From the IMG/VR virus record IMGVR_UViG_3300027702_000001: a stretch of DNA of 64,000 nucleotides; one strand, given 5' to 3'. This document shows positions 33,242 to 37,488 of this stretch, piece by piece. This DNA is from a virus. The first letter of the stretch is position 1. Every line of letters begins with the position of its first letter. The notes below the pieces were generated by a model that was not told where the DNA came from, did no database searches, and saw only the letters and a list, made by a program, of their open reading frames with translations. The position numbers and the translations under genes were made by a program.

Positions 33242-33300
33242 ATTATAGGGGATAGGGACGCGATTGCTCGTGGTGATGTGCCACTAATCGAACTGTCCAC
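33242..33300 (-). promoter_or_regulatory. Early promoter element 1 (palindrome + TATAAT)
   Basis: Plus strand GTGCCACT-aatcga-ACTGTCCAC at 33278-33300, 30 bp from ATTATA at 33242-33247. Confidence 0.75.
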
Positions 33301-33334
33301 TATCGATTGAAATTGGTCGCTTGACGTGATACGG

Positions 33335-33658
33335 TTATTTACCTACACCATAGTCGGATGCACTTCTCTCAAGTTGGTATAAACTTCCGTCTCTATATCC
33401 ATCCTTATATGATTGTTCGATCTTTTCATCGATCTTTTCAAAGTCATCTTCTGAGAGACCACTCTCTTCAAATATGAGAGCATTATCTGAAAACTTTTTC
33501 AACTCTTCGAGAACCTCGTCATATGAAAATTGGCGGTTTATGGCATTATCTCCGAATGCTAGTTCATAGACCTCTTCAATAAATTCGTTTTTTGTCATTT
33601 GCTTTTGTACTGTGAGATTGTTCAATGTGAGATTAAGATCGGTAAAAATATCGTGCAT
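33335..33658 (-). CDS. Early-region hypothetical acidic protein
   Basis: Track ORF, co-oriented in an operon. Confidence 0.65.
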   Translation of the reverse strand: MHDIFTDLNLTLNNLTVQKQMTKNEFIEEVYELAFGDNAINRQFSYDEVLEELKKFSDNALIFEESGLSEDDFEKIDEKIEQSYKDGYRDGSLYQLERSASDYGVGK

Positions 33659-33663
33659 AGTGC

Positions 33664-33858
33664 TTAGAATGGGTTTGTCCAGTTGTATGCTTGCCAGTCG
33701 GTAACCATCCCATCCTGATTGAGACAGTCAACAAAATTGTTCCAACTCTCACGTTTTGCGATTGTGTCACCTCTGAGAGACCTATCCTGAGCAACTGCCA
33801 CTTTCCAGTTGTAACGAAATTGCTCTAGAACCTGTGCTTTAGTTGCTCTCCAAGTCAT
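33664..33858 (-). CDS. Early-region hypothetical protein (64 aa, Trp-rich)
   Basis: First ORF after promoter element 2; AGGAG RBS. Confidence 0.75.
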   Translation of the reverse strand: MTWRATKAQVLEQFRYNWKVAVAQDRSLRGDTIAKRESWNNFVDCLNQDGMVTDWQAYNWTNPF

Positions 33859-33890
33859 TTGTGAAATTCTCCTTTGTTTGCTATGTACTT

Positions 33891-33948
33891 ATTATAACGG
33901 ATCAGATCCGCCTGTGTAGGGTAGGTGTGCCAGTTCGTGAACTGTCCT
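33891..33948 (-). promoter_or_regulatory. Early promoter element 2
   Basis: GTGCCAGT-tcgtga-ACTGTCCT at 33927-33948, 30 bp from ATTATA at 33891-33896. Confidence 0.75.
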
Positions 33949-33979
33949 AGAAAGTGGTCAGTCTTAACTGTCTCACCTA

Positions 33980-34129
33980 TCATTTATTAAGAGGACTATT
34001 AAAATATGCTTTATTTACTGTGTAGATGGTAAAAATAGCGACGATGATCCCTAAAAACCCTAACCACAAAATTGGGGAATGGGGGAAATCATAAAATGGG
34101 ACTTCTGTGGGAACTGTTGAAAATTGCAT
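33980..34129 (-). CDS. Small membrane protein (49 aa)
   Basis: Hand-translated MQFSTVPTEVPFYDFPHSPILWLGFLGIIVAIFTIYTVNKAYFNSPLNK; one TM helix. Confidence 0.6.
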   Translation of the reverse strand: MQFSTVPTEVPFYDFPHSPILWLGFLGIIVAIFTIYTVNKAYFNSPLNK

Positions 34130-34130
34130 C

Positions 34131-34205
34131 TTAGTTAGGATTGTAGTAATTGAGAAATAGCACTAATATAAGTGCGATGAGTAAAATTGAAATTAATGTG
34201 ATCAT
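34131..34205 (-). CDS. Tiny hydrophobic peptide (24 aa)
   Basis: MITLISILLIALILVLFLNYYNPN; ATGA-coupled upstream and 1 nt from the next ATG. Confidence 0.4.
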   Translation of the reverse strand: MITLISILLIALILVLFLNYYNPN

Positions 34206-34354
34206 TCTGTGTAAATGTATGAGTTACCAGTATCATATACATCCGAGAAGAGTTGATAATATAGGTCATTCATTAAACCAAATTCAAAACTAGTGCTCGC
34301 GTGCTCTTCAGTCACTCCCTCGTAGCATTTGAGAATTTCATCGTATTGAGTCAT
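34202..34354 (-). CDS. Early-region hypothetical protein (50 aa)
   Basis: Start moved to ATG 34354, since the longer track start lies upstream of promoter element 3. Confidence 0.6.
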   Translation of the reverse strand: MTQYDEILKCYEGVTEEHASTSFEFGLMNDLYYQLFSDVYDTGNSYIYTE

Positions 34355-34378
34355 CTTTTCCTCTGTGTGTATGTCCTT

Positions 34379-34437
34379 ATTATAAGGGATGGGATTCTGA
34401 TCTGTGTGTGGTGTTGTGACAGTAGTTAAACTGTCAC
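34379..34437 (-). promoter_or_regulatory. Early promoter element 3
   Basis: Perfect palindrome GTGACAGT-agttaa-ACTGTCAC at 34416-34437, 31 bp from ATTATA at 34379-34384. Confidence 0.8.
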
Positions 34438-34451
34438 ACAACCGCTTGACT

Positions 34452-34877
34452 TTAGTAAACAATGCACTTATTAGATACATTGATGATTGTGAAACCGAGT
34501 TTTTTCAAAATGTTTCTGTATCTTGCGATCTGAGTATTCTTGCGATATTCCCAAAGATCATCGCCAAATGCGATATAAGAAACTTTTGCTACTTTAGTTT
34601 TATCAATGTGGATTGCTCTGTAATCATCCTGACTAATGTCATCGTGGGCAACTTCGTAAACGATCTTAGCAACTACCTCGCCGCCGATGATTAGATTTGA
34701 AAATTGTGAACTCTCGTGCTTATGGTGAACTGAAACACCATTTTTCCAGTCTCCAGATCCATATGTGTTGATGCGATCTAAAACTAGTGATTGATATACA
34801 TCGAGTTTAACCTCTGGATCAAGACCAATTCTAAGTGTGTCTTTTTTGATCAATTCTTTGTATTCTGTAGGTGTCAT
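34452..34877 (-). CDS. Early-region hypothetical protein (141 aa)
   Basis: First ORF after promoter element 4. Confidence 0.75.
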   Translation of the reverse strand: MTPTEYKELIKKDTLRIGLDPEVKLDVYQSLVLDRINTYGSGDWKNGVSVHHKHESSQFSNLIIGGEVVAKIVYEVAHDDISQDDYRAIHIDKTKVAKVSYIAFGDDLWEYRKNTQIARYRNILKKLGFTIINVSNKCIVY

Positions 34878-34900
34878 AGTTGTTTGTTGCTTATACTAAT

Positions 34901-34959
34901 ATTATAGAGGATGATGCCCCAATAATAAACAACGTATGTGCCACTAATACAACTGGCAC
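34901..34959 (-). promoter_or_regulatory. Early promoter element 4
   Basis: GTGCCACT-aataca-ACTGGCAC at 34938-34959, 31 bp from ATTATA at 34901-34906. Confidence 0.8.
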
Positions 34960-35177
34960 TAGAATCTTTCTAAAACTTTGCATTTTGTGTAATCGTAAAC
35001 AGGATGGAATAATGTTTCATCGTTACAGATCTCCATTTGTGGTCTACAATAGCGTCCCCATCTTCGGATAACTGTTCCAATAATCCGCTGACCTATTGGA
35101 TCAGTATATGCAACGATGTCACCTATACTAATCTCAGCGAATGACTCATAAGTGTTGTATTCTTTAATTTCGCTCAT
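34959..35177 (-). CDS. Early-region hypothetical protein (72 aa, SH3-like beta pattern)
   Basis: ISIGDIVAY...IIGTVIR; stop abuts palindrome 4. Confidence 0.65.
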   Translation of the reverse strand: MSEIKEYNTYESFAEISIGDIVAYTDPIGQRIIGTVIRRWGRYCRPQMEICNDETLFHPVYDYTKCKVLERF

Positions 35178-35404
35178 TGTGCAACCGCTCTTGTTTCAAT
35201 GATTATATCTCTAACTCTCTCGCGATCGAGTGAGTCACCATCACCGAACTCAATATTAGTGTTTGATGCACATAGATCGAGGTATCTGAGTATCGCGATT
35301 GCGATCTCTCCAGTTGTTAATCCATCGATAGGATATAATACATCGGGATGATATGGTGCATAAAACATTTCGATGTAGTCTAGAAATTCTTGAAAATTGC
35401 TCAT
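35174..35404 (-). CDS. Early-region hypothetical protein (76 aa)
   Basis: Start moved to ATG 35404, which has an AGGAG RBS; C-terminal FGDGDSLDRERVRD motif. Confidence 0.65.
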   Translation of the reverse strand: MSNFQEFLDYIEMFYAPYHPDVLYPIDGLTTGEIAIAILRYLDLCASNTNIEFGDGDSLDRERVRDIIIETRAVAQ

Positions 35405-35408
35405 TAGT

Positions 35409-35603
35409 TTAAACTCCTTTAACTCTTGATTGTAGGTAAGTTGATTGTGCTTGACATACATTGTCAACTAGGTTATCGAATGTTTGAACATCCCAACCTT
35501 TTTGCTCTGCAATGTCTAACTCATATGCTGTCATTACGAGGTCATAGAGTAACTCATATTGACCGTTTGAGACTTCGATGTTCATTCCTTTGATTGATTT
35601 CAT
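35409..35603 (-). CDS. Early-region hypothetical protein (64 aa)
   Basis: First ORF after promoter element 5. Confidence 0.65.
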   Translation of the reverse strand: MKSIKGMNIEVSNGQYELLYDLVMTAYELDIAEQKGWDVQTFDNLVDNVCQAQSTYLQSRVKGV

Positions 35604-35630
35604 TTAGTTTCCTTTGTTGCTTATGTCCTT

Positions 35631-35688
35631 ATTATAGAGGATCAATACCGCTCTGGGATGCTTTTGTAGTCACTTTGTGAACTGTCAC
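35631..35688 (-). promoter_or_regulatory. Early promoter element 5
   Basis: TAGTCACT-ttgtga-ACTGTCAC at 35667-35688, 30 bp from ATTATA at 35631-35636. Confidence 0.75.
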
Positions 35689-35836
35689 AATGCTCCTTGA
35701 CAAGATACTCGCCTGTCATTATTCTTTCAAATACTGCGGTCTGTTCATCATTTAGATCAAAATCCATATCTCTGAGAACATCCCACAATTTCGTCATTTG
35801 ATATGACTCGTCGAATGACATAGGTATATTAAGCAT
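35642..35836 (-). CDS. Early-region hypothetical protein (64 aa)
   Basis: Track ORF whose 3' end runs through palindrome 5. Confidence 0.6.
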   Translation of the reverse strand: MLNIPMSFDESYQMTKLWDVLRDMDFDLNDEQTAVFERIMTGEYLVKEHCDSSQSDYKSIPERY

Positions 35837-36050
35837 CGTAGTTAACTCCGCTGAATACTCTTAACTGAGTTGCATAGTTAACAAGTTGATTGAATCCATC
35901 TTCATTAACCTTAATCTGATCCAATAGTTTTGAGTCTGCTTCCTCATCTAGAAACCTCATAATGGTCTCAAATTGCTCTAACGCTTCAAAACTAAATCCA
36001 GTCTCTGCTTCAACTTCTGTGCGATCTGGGAATGTTGAGTTTTCAATCAT
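35829..36050 (-). CDS. Early-region hypothetical protein (73 aa)
   Basis: First ORF after promoter element 6. Confidence 0.65.
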   Translation of the reverse strand: MIENSTFPDRTEVEAETGFSFEALEQFETIMRFLDEEADSKLLDQIKVNEDGFNQLVNYATQLRVFSGVNYDA

Positions 36051-36075
36051 TTGTTTTTGTGTTGCTTATGTTCTT

Positions 36076-36133
36076 ATTATAGTCAATGTATGTGAACTAT
36101 GGTGTTACTGTGTGCCAGTAATATAACTGTCAC
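36076..36133 (-). promoter_or_regulatory. Early promoter element 6
   Basis: GTGCCAGT-aatata-ACTGTCAC at 36112-36133, 30 bp from ATTATA at 36076-36081. Confidence 0.8.
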
Positions 36134-36145
36134 ATAAACACTTGA

Positions 36146-36319
36146 CTATGCACTTTGTAGTTCTTCTAATAGAGAGTCAAGTTCTTCAGCACAATGACCA
36201 CATCGCCATCCCTCTATCTCATCACCATAATATGCATATCTGTTGACGAATCTGCCTGATCCTGCTTTACAAGACTGACCACAGTCAACACAAATTTCTG
36301 AATCAAATGTATTTTTCAT
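36146..36319 (-). CDS. Small zinc-finger-like protein (57 aa)
   Basis: Hand-translated MKNTFDSEICVDCGQSC...WRCGHCAEELDSLLEELQSA; CxxC...CxxC. Confidence 0.6.
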   Translation of the reverse strand: MKNTFDSEICVDCGQSCKAGSGRFVNRYAYYGDEIEGWRCGHCAEELDSLLEELQSA

Positions 36320-36474
36320 TGACATTCATCCTCGAATCTCTCGCGAGCAATATATTCACAATGCTCAACAAGTGCTTCCTCACTCATCATTTTATCGAGA
36401 CCTGTGGATCTCATTAGTTCTAACTCATCTTCATAGAATCCGATAAGCATATCTTCGTGATGTGAAACTGACAT
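36316..36474 (-). CDS. Early-region hypothetical protein (52 aa)
   Basis: Hand-translated MSVSHHEDMLIGFYEDEL...ARERFEDECQ; ATGA-coupled; GGAGG RBS. Confidence 0.55.
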   Translation of the reverse strand: MSVSHHEDMLIGFYEDELELMRSTGLDKMMSEEALVEHCEYIARERFEDECQ

Positions 36475-36612
36475 TTAAACTTCCTCCCAGTAAACTGTAT
36501 CAACTTTTTTGTATAGGTCTGCAACTTTGCATCCCTTACGTCTAGCAACTTGTCTTGCTATCATCGCTTCCCATCTTAGGAATGACTCATAGTTTCTGTT
36601 TCTACTGCACAT
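36475..36612 (-). CDS. Early-region hypothetical protein (45 aa)
   Basis: Hand-translated MCSRNRNYESFLRWEAMIARQVARRKG...; first ORF after promoter element 7. Confidence 0.5.
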   Translation of the reverse strand: MCSRNRNYESFLRWEAMIARQVARRKGCKVADLYKKVDTVYWEEV

Positions 36613-36635
36613 AATGTTTGTTTGTTTATACTATT

Positions 36636-36693
36636 ATTATAGTAAATGTGTGGTGCATATGGTAACATTATGTGCCACTAGTTGAACTGTCAC
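36636..36693 (-). promoter_or_regulatory. Early promoter element 7
   Basis: GTGCCACT-agttga-ACTGTCAC at 36672-36693, 30 bp from ATTATA at 36636-36641. Confidence 0.8.
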
Positions 36694-36923
36694 ACTATAC
36701 GATCCATAAAGATCCATTCATATGTACCATCCTCAGGGTCGCGTCCATTAACAACGAACTCCTCATAAATGGCATCAGCATCTTCAAAACGGTTGGCATC
36801 AATGTGCTTTGTGATCACGTTCATATAGTGCTCACCCATCAGATCGATTGATGTTTGCATTTGTTCGTTAAATTCCTGATTGTGGTCGTACTCGTGGATC
36901 TCGTTATTTAATTCGTGTTCCAT
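36690..36923 (-). CDS. Early-region hypothetical acidic protein (77 aa)
   Basis: Its TGA stop is supplied by palindrome 7 (GTGACAGT). Confidence 0.65.
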   Translation of the reverse strand: MEHELNNEIHEYDHNQEFNEQMQTSIDLMGEHYMNVITKHIDANRFEDADAIYEEFVVNGRDPEDGTYEWIFMDRIV

Positions 36924-37407
36924 AGGTTTGGATTGCTTTGTTGGGGATAGTGTAACCTAGTCGTGGGTCTTTTCTGATCTTATCAGAATGAAATTGCTTT
37001 TTAAGACTAGGTAGTAGCAAGTTCAGTACGTCATCGCCTGACATTTGCCAGACTTCAACAACTTGACCATTTTGGTAGCGTGCAAAGAAGTGATCTTTGT
37101 ACTTGCCAATTTTCTCTTCTTTGAGATACTTGACTTGATCTTCCCAAGTATCTTGAACTGAAATACCATTGTAGGTGGCGGTCAGTTTCTTACCTATAGT
37201 AGATTTATACTCAACAGGATTCCCATCCTGATCAAATGCATCAGCACCCGAGTAATCATCAGCAACATTATGCCCAAGGATACCCGCTAAGTGAATTTCA
37301 CGTGAGCGTGCATAACTGAATGGATCTCCCCATCCGTGTTGGTCGCAAAGAGCATACATTTGCTCAAAAAGTTGCTGATATTGTTGTTCGGGTGTTGTCA
37401 CTTGCAT
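36904..37407 (-). CDS. PvuII-like PD-(D/E)xK restriction endonuclease family protein (167 aa)
   Basis: HGWGDPF, GADAFDQDGNPVEYKS, KIGKYKDHFFARY and YGTRIK align by eye with PvuII as recalled (HGINDIF, GNDAVDNAGQEYELKS, IIAKYRQVPWIFAIY, HGTKIY). Start moved to ATG 37407, downstream of promoter 8. Confidence 0.7.
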   Translation of the reverse strand: MQVTTPEQQYQQLFEQMYALCDQHGWGDPFSYARSREIHLAGILGHNVADDYSGADAFDQDGNPVEYKSTIGKKLTATYNGISVQDTWEDQVKYLKEEKIGKYKDHFFARYQNGQVVEVWQMSGDDVLNLLLPSLKKQFHSDKIRKDPRLGYTIPNKAIQTYGTRIK

Positions 37408-37429
37408 AGTTTTTTGATTCGATACCTCT

Positions 37430-37487
37430 ATTATAAGGGTTAAACCCATCCGTGTGTGGATGGGTGTGCCACTAGTCAAACTGTCAC
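37430..37487 (-). promoter_or_regulatory. Early promoter element 8 with nested hairpin
   Basis: GTGCCACT-agtcaa-ACTGTCAC at 37466-37487, 30 bp from ATTATA at 37430-37435; the spacer holds the perfect 8-bp stem ACCCATCC/GGATGGGT. Confidence 0.8.
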
Positions 37488-37488
37488 A

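What the first reader, a model, noticed from the sequence alone, without database searches (positions are those of the whole stretch)
36904..37407. Orphan PvuII-like restriction endonuclease expressed from an early promoter
Seen: full-length by-eye similarity to PvuII, including an intact D...E-x-K core (GADAFD...VEYKS). It is the first gene after element 8, and no methyltransferase is present in the window. Together with AGCT avoidance this suggests a methylase-free attack nuclease for host chromosome degradation or exclusion of co-infecting phages, with self-protection by site avoidance.
Basis: partly seen in the sequence, partly recalled or inferred. Interest (0 to 1): 0.7.

Follow-up and report, generated by a model that had tools for sequence, protein, structure and literature searches.

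The report
Methylase-free PvuII-like nuclease in cyanophage
A marine cyanobacterial virus carries an intact restriction-type DNA-cutting enzyme related to PvuII but no protective methylase, and it seems to spare its own DNA by containing none of the enzyme's target sites, most likely GATATC or CATG rather than PvuII's CAGCTG.

Summary
Window 36904-37407 (minus strand) is an intact 167-aa ORF. Its predicted structure (pLDDT 93) matches R.PvuII over the full length (Z 14.6), and the D-E-x-K triad never varies in the 24 homologues aligned. The gene is under strong purifying selection (dN/dS 0.02-0.08). A repeated promoter-like element lies directly upstream.

The host virus is an uncultured T4-like marine cyanophage. 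A ~95% identical complete relative (G001) has no PF01555, NPPF-type, C5 or PF02384 methylase. It has only a distant Dam-like gene. "Orphan" is therefore right for this clade. In related phages the gene sits next to methylase genes.

The AGCT argument fails. AGCT, CCGG and GGCC are depleted in all cyanomyoviruses sampled, including eight that lack the gene. PvuII's base-reading residues are not conserved.

An unbiased scan of 2128 k-mers gave one clean result. GATATC is the only word absent from carriers without a methylase (1 observed, 253 expected, three lineages). It occurs at normal frequency in carriers with a methylase and in non-carriers. CATG is also absent, but across one larger clade that includes carriers with a PF01555 methylase. 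Earlier agents of this scan proposed CATG for sister genomes. The target and the biological role remain untested.

The parts
36904..37407 (-). 167-aa PvuII-fold restriction-type endonuclease gene (stop codon included). The inferred catalytic residues are D56, E66 and K68.
   Evidence: ORF and translation. AF2 model with pLDDT 93. PvuII is the top structural match at Z 14.6. The triad is invariant in 24 homologues. dN/dS is 0.02-0.08 within the clade.
37430..37435 (-). TATAAT, a -10-like hexamer 22 nt upstream of the ATG.
   Evidence: Sequence. The same hexamer lies at a fixed distance from the dyad in at least seven units.
37465..37488 (-). 24-nt imperfect dyad (TGTGACAGTT..ACTAGTGGCACA).
   Evidence: Pattern search: 5 matches against 0.9 expected. 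Alignment. Seven clear copies between 33286 and 37474 on the minus strand.
37445..37464 (-). 7-bp stem-loop (CCCATCC..GGATGGG) between the dyad and the -10 box, followed by TTTAA. It may end the upstream 77-aa gene's transcript.
   Evidence: Read from the sequence. Not tested further.

Best explanation
Shown: the gene encodes an intact, selectively maintained nuclease with the PvuII fold and a complete D-E-x-K active site. It lies in an uncultured T4-like marine cyanophage. In many related phages the same gene lies next to DNA methylase genes. An NPPF-motif small methylase follows it immediately in about 47 of 80 loci. A PF01555 methylase lies adjacent or 2-3.5 kb away in others. The window's clade has neither methylase.

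Inferred: the enzyme is a homodimeric Mg-dependent type IIP-like restriction endonuclease with one specificity across the family, because the segments aligned to PvuII's DNA-reading loops never vary. In this clade it is harmless to the phage only because the phage genome contains no target.

The most likely target is GATATC (the EcoRV site). That hexamer alone is absent from every carrier that lacks both methylases, and it is at normal frequency in all other phages sampled. Expressed from its own promoter-like unit in the early-gene region, the enzyme would cut any unmodified DNA carrying the site. That would include the host chromosome and co-infecting phages.
For: Fold and active site.

Selection: dN/dS 0.02-0.08.

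No methylase other than a Dam-like gene in the complete relatives. No TGT/DpdA base-modification gene either.

Methylase linkage in relatives. Among cyanophage isolates, the NPPF gene occurs only in the three phages that carry the nuclease.

GATATC evidence:
- In a scan of 2128 4-6-mers it is the only word separating methylase-less carriers (maximum observed/expected 0.02) from methylase-bearing carriers (minimum 0.62) and non-carrier isolates (minimum 0.74).
- Pooled counts are 1/169, 0/54 and 0/30 in the three methylase-less lineages. They are 160/164, 318/366 and 285/255 in the other groups. Every one-letter neighbour is normal.
- The single GATATC in G002 lies in a probably chimeric 2.5-kb contig tail.
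- Among 40 capsid-gene-anchored loci of other cyanomyoviruses, only the carrier G003 lacks it.
- On the nuclease tree the three methylase-less lineages are interleaved with methylase-bearing ones (3 changes).
- GATATC frequency is bimodal: zero in the unprotected group and mostly near 1 elsewhere (0.6-1.15 in most; 0.27-0.28 in G015 and G020). That fits an all-or-none self-inflicted constraint.
Against: - No biochemical data exist for any family member.
- CATG is also absent genome-wide (0 of about 660) in all carriers that lack the NPPF methylase, so CATG is a serious rival.
- The GATATC reading needs both unrelated methylases to protect GATATC. G004 is 88% complete, has NPPF only and has normal GATATC. 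G006, G008 and G011 have PF01555 only on incomplete contigs.
- Three of the six methylase-less contigs are only 44-54% complete, so a methylase could lie off-contig.
- The starred (well-supported) branches do not exclude a single origin of the methylase-less state.
- These phages avoid many palindromes for reasons unrelated to this gene (CCGG is 0 in all). A host EcoRV-type enzyme acting on this group could give the same pattern.
- G020 (methylase status unknown) has an intermediate GATATC count, 4 of 15 expected.
- The early-gene region is poor in all 6-bp palindromes, so 20-kb loci cannot be used for this test.
Confidence: 0.4

Rival explanations
1. Same kind of enzyme and the same self-sparing logic, but the target is CATG. 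The adjacent NPPF adenine methylase is the true partner. The clade that lost it purged every CATG. GATATC avoidance then has a separate cause: loss of the PF01555 methylase in phages whose hosts have an EcoRV-type enzyme.
For: - CATG is 0 of about 620-690 expected in G001-G003 and 0 in all 13 contigs without NPPF. It is 0.11-0.83 of expectation in NPPF carriers and about 0.7-1.1 in non-carrier isolates.
- 47 PF01555-anchored loci without the nuclease have normal CATG.
- NPPF is the immediately adjacent gene in most loci, and in isolates it co-occurs only with the nuclease.
- An NPPF-bearing sublineage nested in the CATG-free clade has CATG at 0.22-0.71.
- Earlier agents of this scan reached this reading on sister genomes. 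That is not independent evidence.
Against: - Apart from G032, CATG-free carriers without NPPF form essentially one clade on the nuclease tree (97-98% support) and are about 70-75% identical in DNA. This may be one event.
- NPPF carriers, supposedly protected, are still strongly depleted in CATG: 0.11-0.27 genome-wide in G004, G005, G017 and G018, and about 0.00-0.03 locally in L093, L470 and L478. A CATG pressure independent of the nuclease therefore exists.
- L063 has an intact nuclease, no NPPF within 15.5 kb and CATG at 0.49.
- G030 is CATG-free with no nuclease on its 22 kb, but it is only 11% complete.
- This reading leaves unexplained why GATATC is purged only in nuclease carriers.
Confidence: 0.3
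2. One reading: a PvuII isoschizomer cutting CAGCTG (or AGCT), with AGCT avoidance as the self-protection.
For: - PvuII is the closest structure.
- CAGCTG is 0 in the window and in G001-G003, against 27-30 expected by base composition.
- P-SSM2 has 4 CAGCTG against about 10 expected from its 5-mers, computed by me from the counts.
Against: - AGCT depletion is as strong in phages without the gene (S-WAM1 16 of 380, S-SZBM1 36 of 375).
- Given the AGCT depletion, zero CAGCTG is expected (Markov 0.3-0.7).
- G001 still holds 16 AGCT, so a 4-bp AGCT cutter would cut it.
- G007 and G012, with no methylase on contig, hold 5 CAGCTG each.
- G032 holds 14 against 4.4 expected.
- The positions aligned to PvuII H84, H85, N140 and N141 carry different, invariant residues.
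Confidence: 0.07
3. The protein is not a self-toxic short-site restriction enzyme. It may have a long or degenerate site, act as a mobile homing-type or nicking nuclease, or serve recombination or repair. All word avoidance in these genomes is then caused by host restriction systems and only correlates with phage lineage.
For: - Distribution is patchy: 3 isolate phages among the isolate records searched. The gene sits in differing contexts and has its own promoter-like unit.
- These phages avoid many palindromes whether or not they carry the gene.
- Weaker structural matches include Holliday-junction resolvases and the homing endonuclease I-Ssp6803I at Z 7-8.
Against: - The full-length PvuII match, including the N-terminal helices, scores far higher than the resolvase matches (Z 14.6 against 7-8).
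- The recurrent tight linkage to methylase genes is typical of restriction-modification.
- GATATC loss is specific to the exact hexamer and, in the roughly 30 lineages sampled, to carriers without methylases.
Confidence: 0.23

Closest known systems
R.PvuII (type IIP restriction endonuclease, CAG^CTG; Pfam PF09225; PDB 1pvi, 2pvi, 1f0o)
   Same: Similar size (167 against 157 aa). Same fold over the whole chain (Z 14.6, 149 residues). Same order and spacing of the catalytic D..E-x-K. Similar C-terminal K-D-x-P and G-T-x-I segments.
   Different: About 19% identity, below the Pfam cut-off for this protein. The segments aligned to PvuII's base-contacting residues differ. There is no adjacent N4-cytosine methylase and no controller protein. 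The family is viral rather than cellular: only 2 tiny MAG contigs among 185,579 species genomes. The target is probably not CAGCTG.
R.EcoRV (GAT^ATC), a blunt-cutting relative of PvuII in the same structural class
   Same: If the GATATC inference is right, this enzyme shares EcoRV's recognition site. The title of the PvuII entry 1pvu notes the structural kinship of PvuII and EcoRV.
   Different: The structural match to EcoRV itself is weak (Z 4.0). The fold is PvuII-like, so this would be a convergent specificity.
Virus-encoded restriction-modification systems of chloroviruses (for example R.CviAII and M.CviAII, CATG), thought to degrade host DNA early in infection (own knowledge, not checked here)
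   Same: A lytic virus carries a type II-like nuclease that would attack host DNA while viral DNA is spared.
   Different: Chlorovirus DNA is spared by methylation. The window's clade has no partner methylase and appears to rely on complete absence of the site.
T4 endonuclease II (denA) and endonuclease IV (denB) (own knowledge)
   Same: Early phage nucleases that destroy host DNA in T4-type phages while sparing phage DNA.
   Different: T4 distinguishes self by hydroxymethylcytosine. These cyanophages show no sign of base replacement: there is no TGT/DpdA gene and site avoidance is extreme. The enzymes belong to different families.
DpnII-type cassettes with two methylases of different classes for one site (own knowledge)
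   Same: P-TIM68 has PF01555 methylase, nuclease and NPPF methylase in a row, with short gaps of about 10-90 bp depending on the start codon. One PDB match of the PF01555 methylase is DpnA.
   Different: It is unproven that both cyanophage methylases share one specificity. PF01555 also occurs widely without the nuclease.

Membership tests
PvuII-like endonuclease fold (PF09225 / PD-(D/E)XK beta-class) | Overall fold, including the N-terminal helical dimerisation region and the central mixed sheet | tested here: met
   AF2 pLDDT 93. Foldseek E 1.7e-7 and TM 0.67-0.72. VIA-align Z 14.6 over residues 2-167 against 4-157.
PvuII-like endonuclease fold (PF09225 / PD-(D/E)XK beta-class) | Catalytic D...E-x-K triad (PvuII D58, E68, K70) | tested here: met
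   D56, E66 and K68 align to the PvuII triad. They are invariant in 24 homologues.
PvuII-like endonuclease fold (PF09225 / PD-(D/E)XK beta-class) | Score above Pfam's curated cut-off (25 bits) | tested here: not met
   This protein scores 14.2 bits, E 0.045. The P-TIM68 homologue scores 18.5 bits. Family member P0135 scores 30.6 bits. Some precomputed PF09225 hits exist among homologues.
R.PvuII isoschizomer (CAGCTG) | Conservation of the base-contacting residues (PvuII D34, S81-H85, N140, N141, K143; own knowledge of the PvuII-DNA structures) | tested here: not met
   HMMER alignment of P0073 to 2pvi puts NGISVQ opposite GFSTHHH and KDPR opposite NNPK. These family segments are invariant. The result rests on a low-scoring alignment.
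Type II restriction-modification system | Cognate DNA methyltransferase in the same genome, usually adjacent | tested here: not met
   No PF01555, NPPF-type, PF00145, PF05869 or PF02384 methylase in the window or in G001-G003. Only a Dam-like PF02086 gene about 89 kb away. The feature is met in relatives.
Type II restriction-modification system | Site-specific Mg-dependent double-strand cleavage blocked by the cognate methylation | not testable with these tools
   Needs enzyme assays.
Free-standing homing endonuclease | Long asymmetric target in gene-less relatives at the insertion point; HNH, GIY-YIG, LAGLIDADG or similar fold | tested here: inconclusive
   Distribution is patchy and the gene has its own promoter-like unit. 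However, the fold is PvuII-like and the gene is linked to methylases. I-Ssp6803I matches only at Z 7.7. No gene-less sister locus was found for comparison.

The most novel reading that the evidence does not exclude
A lytic phage tells self from non-self purely by sequence content. It keeps an active restriction enzyme without any methylase and has erased every copy of the target (GATATC, possibly also CATG through this or a second nuclease) from a 180-kb genome. It uses the enzyme against the host chromosome and against co-infecting phages. The many solitary PF01555 methylases in other cyanomyoviruses would then be immunity against such armed competitors.
Probability: 0.3. Interest if true: 0.8.

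Novelty: new variant of a known kind. Interest (0 to 1): 0.66.

Why it matters
Restriction enzymes are thought to need a partner methylase, and phages are usually their victims. This family is abundant in ocean metagenomes (1367 clusters at 90% identity). The exact window protein was seen on 58 contigs.

Some lineages keep the nuclease under strong selection with no methylase, in genomes that lack particular palindromes completely. If the enzyme is active, it would explain how T4-like cyanophages, which lack modified bases, can attack host or rival DNA without harming themselves. It would also offer a reason for solitary phage methylases.

The finding yields a possible new-fold EcoRV or CATG isoschizomer. 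It also gives a testable prediction for the isolates P-SSM2 and P-TIM68, which carry the complete cassette.

Tried and rejected
- A family profile against PDB sequences did not find PvuII. Only single sequences gave weak hits.
- Megablast of the locus against isolate phages found nothing.
- The PF01555 methylase is only distantly like M.PvuII (E 5e-8, twelfth hit). It therefore says nothing about the site.
- Counts of 6-bp words in the 20-kb loci around the gene are unusable. The early-gene region is poor in all 6-bp palindromes, in non-carriers too. An apparent GATATC desert around the gene was dropped for that reason.
- A search with the neighbouring helicase, meant to find close relatives lacking the gene, returned only carriers or distant phages.
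- G030 (CATG-free, methylase present, no nuclease on contig) could not serve as a natural knockout. It is 11% complete and has a different gene order.
- L482 and L487 (nuclease, no NPPF on contig, CATG present) proved collinear with P-SSM2. Their NPPF gene would lie just beyond the contig end.
- G002's 12 CATG and 1 GATATC all lie in the last 2.5 kb, which is probably a chimeric tail.
- RNA-library contigs cover only parts of the region. They give no strand or start site, and DNA carry-over cannot be excluded.
- The genome collection of 185,579 species gave only two hits, on contigs of 2-3 kb in marine MAGs.
- The 77-aa members of the protein's cluster are the upstream gene, joined through a read-through form. 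They are not truncated nucleases.
- No paper on this family or on site avoidance in marine cyanomyoviruses was found in the library.
- The window's own genome is not held, so whole-genome statements rest on G001 (about 95% identical, collinear).

Full report
**What is there.**
Window 36904-37407 on the minus strand is a 167-aa ORF. Sequence searches alone barely identify it. Pfam PF09225 (PvuII) scores E 0.045, below the cut-off. A PDB search gives E 0.66, but it aligns GADAFD..EYKS with PvuII's GNDAVD..ELKS. PHROGs places it in a family of unknown function (phrog_35715, E 1e-70).

An alignment of 24 homologues (A1) has 48 invariant positions, including D56, E66 and K68. The AlphaFold2 model built on A1 is confident (pLDDT 93.2). 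PvuII chains fill the top of both structure searches. Foldseek gives E 1.7e-7 and TM 0.67-0.72. VIA-align gives Z 14.6 with 149 of 152 residues aligned at rmsd 3.2 A. The next matches are NhoI and Eco15I at Z about 10, and resolvases at Z 7-8. One family member passes the Pfam threshold.

**Where it lives.**
The closest isolates carrying the gene are the Prochlorococcus phages P-SSM2 and P-SSM5 (60% identity) and P-TIM68 (45%). Tail-fibre DNA elsewhere in the window resembles Synechococcus and Prochlorococcus myoviruses at about 75%.

The window's own assembly is not held. The virus record G001 (181,945 bp, terminal repeats, judged complete) is collinear with it at about 95% identity. G001 encodes a 99% identical protein.

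The family has 1367 clusters at 90% identity, almost all from marine metagenomes, and 242 clusters at 50%. In 185,579 species genomes only two tiny MAG contigs carry it. It is a viral family.

**Is the gene alive?**
Within the window's clade (window, G001, G002, G003), dN/dS is 0.02-0.08 at dS up to 1.1. That indicates strong purifying selection.

**Upstream signals.**
A 24-nt imperfect dyad (37465-37488) is followed 29 nt later by TATAAT (37430-37435). The ATG follows 22 nt after that. At least seven such units lie on the minus strand between 33.2 and 37.5 kb, each ahead of small ORFs. "Own promoter-like unit" is thus shown. "Early" is inferred from the T4-like layout.

RNA-library contigs touch the gene. 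A 158-nt contig identical to 36828-36985 comes from one study. Contigs of a roughly 93% identical relative cover most of the ORF in another. This is weak evidence and carries no strand information.

**Orphan or not.**
In P-TIM68 the gene is flanked by two methylase genes: a PF01555 methylase upstream and a 176-aa NPPF-motif protein downstream. Homologues of the NPPF protein in other phages are annotated as adenine DNA methylases.

Among 80 IMG/VR loci, the NPPF gene follows the nuclease directly in about 47. PF01555 lies adjacent or within a few kb in about 20. A second set of loci shows the same pattern. Among isolate cyanophages, the NPPF gene occurs only in the three nuclease carriers. PF01555 also occurs in many phages without the nuclease.

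The window, G001, G002 and G003 have neither methylase. They also have no PF00145, PF05869 or PF02384 methylase and no TGT/DpdA gene. Their only DNA methylase is a Dam-like PF02086 gene far away. The gene is a true orphan in this clade.

**The AGCT argument.**
AGCT is indeed nearly absent: 3 in the window and 16 in G001 against about 395-660 expected. So are other words: CATG (0), CCGG (0), GGCC, GCGC, AGTACT, GATATC, GTATAC, TACGTA and GACGTC.

Eight isolates lacking the nuclease also show AGCT at 0.04-0.35 of expectation, CCGG at 0 to 1 copy per 100 kb and strongly depleted GGCC. AGCT avoidance is therefore a trait of the whole phage group and says nothing about this gene.

Zero CAGCTG follows from AGCT depletion (Markov expectation 0.3-0.7). 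The positions aligned with PvuII's DNA-reading residues carry other, invariant residues. That also suggests one shared specificity across the family, different from PvuII's.

**Which word tracks the nuclease?**
I assembled 15 large carrier contigs and 8 non-carrier isolates, 100 kb each. I grouped the carriers by gene content. Group A has no NPPF and no PF01555 on the contig: G001-G003, G007/G012 and G009. Group B has at least one of the two.

Of 2128 4-6-mers, GATATC is the only one that separates group A (maximum observed/expected 0.02) from group B (minimum 0.62) and from the controls (minimum 0.74). The next-best word gives no separation at all.

Pooled counts are 1 of 253 expected in group A, against 160/164, 318/366 and 285/255 elsewhere. 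All one-letter neighbours of GATATC are normal. The single group A site lies in a 2.5-kb contig tail that also holds all 12 of G002's CATG, so that tail is probably chimeric.

Six further contigs fit the pattern or are intermediate. G015 is at 0.28. G020, whose methylase status is unknown, is at 0.27. In 40 loci anchored on the capsid gene of other cyanomyoviruses, only the carrier G003 lacks GATATC.

On the nuclease tree the three group A lineages sit among methylase-bearing ones. This requires three changes, although the best-supported branches alone do not exclude one change. By my count, three of three methylase-less lineages against none of about 30 others is unlikely by chance. No formal phylogenetic correction was made.

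**The rival word.**
CATG is absent from every carrier lacking NPPF: group A plus the PF01555-only contigs, G032 and G030. It stands at 0.11-0.83 of expectation in NPPF carriers and is near normal in non-carriers. Earlier agents of this scan read sister genomes this way.

Against this reading:
- Apart from G032, these contigs form essentially one clade.
- NPPF carriers remain strongly depleted in CATG, so a separate CATG pressure exists.
- L063 has the nuclease, no NPPF within 15.5 kb and CATG at half the expected frequency.

For this reading:
- NPPF is the adjacent gene in most loci.
- An NPPF-bearing sublineage nested within the CATG-free clade has CATG.

Each reading needs a second cause for the other word. 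I rate GATATC slightly ahead for three reasons. Its frequency is all-or-none. It recurs in separate lineages. A 6-bp palindrome also suits a PvuII-type dimer (the last point is inference).

**Mechanism proposed.**
Shown: fold, active site, selection, absence of methylases, and absence of candidate sites. Inferred: a homodimeric, Mg-dependent, site-specific cutter made from its own promoter-like unit. It would cut unmodified DNA carrying the site, meaning the host chromosome or co-infecting phages. The phage genome would offer no target. Nothing here tests activity, timing or biological role.

**Novelty.**
No paper in the held library describes this family or site avoidance in marine cyanomyoviruses. 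Virus-encoded restriction enzymes with methylases are known in chloroviruses (own knowledge). A methylase-free one protected by site purging is a new variant of that kind. Within this scan the gene was already noted on several sister genomes. The GATATC result and the demonstration that AGCT avoidance is unrelated are new here.

Noticed in passing
whole window; G001 (L004-L013): Extreme purge of many short palindromes. In the 182-kb relative G001, CATG is 0 against about 620-660 expected and CCGG is 0 against 111-320. GGCC and GCGC are strongly depleted. AGTACT, GATATC, GTATAC, TACGTA and GACGTC are 0 or 1. CCGG is 0 to 1 copy per 100 kb in all eight non-carrier isolates sampled too.
   Followed up: partly
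window 33242-37488, minus strand: At least seven copies of a unit made of a roughly 24-nt imperfect dyad (TGTGnCAGTT..AnTnGTGGCACA), a 27-30 nt variable spacer with no clear -35, and TATAAT. Each copy lies ahead of small ORFs. It looks like an activator-dependent or otherwise unusual promoter class.
   Followed up: partly
L002:5500-6027 (P-TIM68) and about 47 of 80 IMG/VR loci: A highly conserved (80-94% identity) 176-aa NPPF-motif protein follows the nuclease gene directly in most relatives. It is very small for a DNA methylase. Homologues occur in Thermus, Campylobacter, Fusobacterium and Streptococcus phages. It is absent from the window and from G001-G003.
   Followed up: partly
early-gene regions of G004, G005, P-SSM2, P-TIM68, S-WAM1, Syn9 and others: Stretches of 20-60 kb around the early or hypervariable region are poor in all 6-bp palindromes (GATATC, CAATTG, CTGCAG, ATGCAT and others). 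This holds in carriers and non-carriers alike.
   Followed up: partly
G002 (L104), last 2.5 kb of the contig (185,048-187,347): All 12 CATG, the single GATATC, 3 GTATAC and 1 TACGTA of this 187-kb record lie in its final 2.5 kb. That suggests a chimeric assembly end.
   Followed up: no
window and G001: CTGCAG (the PstI site) is about threefold over base-composition expectation: 28 against 9.8 in the window and 92 against 27.8 in G001. GATC is also enriched (1001 against 662) in a genome that encodes a Dam-like methylase (G001:94985-95701).
   Followed up: no
P-RSM6, P-TIM40, P-SSM4 (W03, W04, W10) and L358-L437: A PF01555 methylase 75-84% identical to the one beside the nuclease in P-TIM68 is widespread in cyanomyoviruses that lack the nuclease. 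There are 593 IMG/VR loci, and nearly all of the best 80 lack the nuclease.
   Followed up: partly
L444, L445: The only cellular-genome hits are 2-3 kb contigs binned into a Flavobacteriales MAG and a Nitrososphaerales MAG. These are most likely viral contigs binned by mistake.
   Followed up: no
L280-L283, L351: The next clade by capsid protein (85% identity to G001) shares the near-total AGCT loss (1-2 of 60-80 expected) and AGTACT loss, but has normal CATG and GATATC. Whether it carries the nuclease is unknown because the contigs are short.
   Followed up: no
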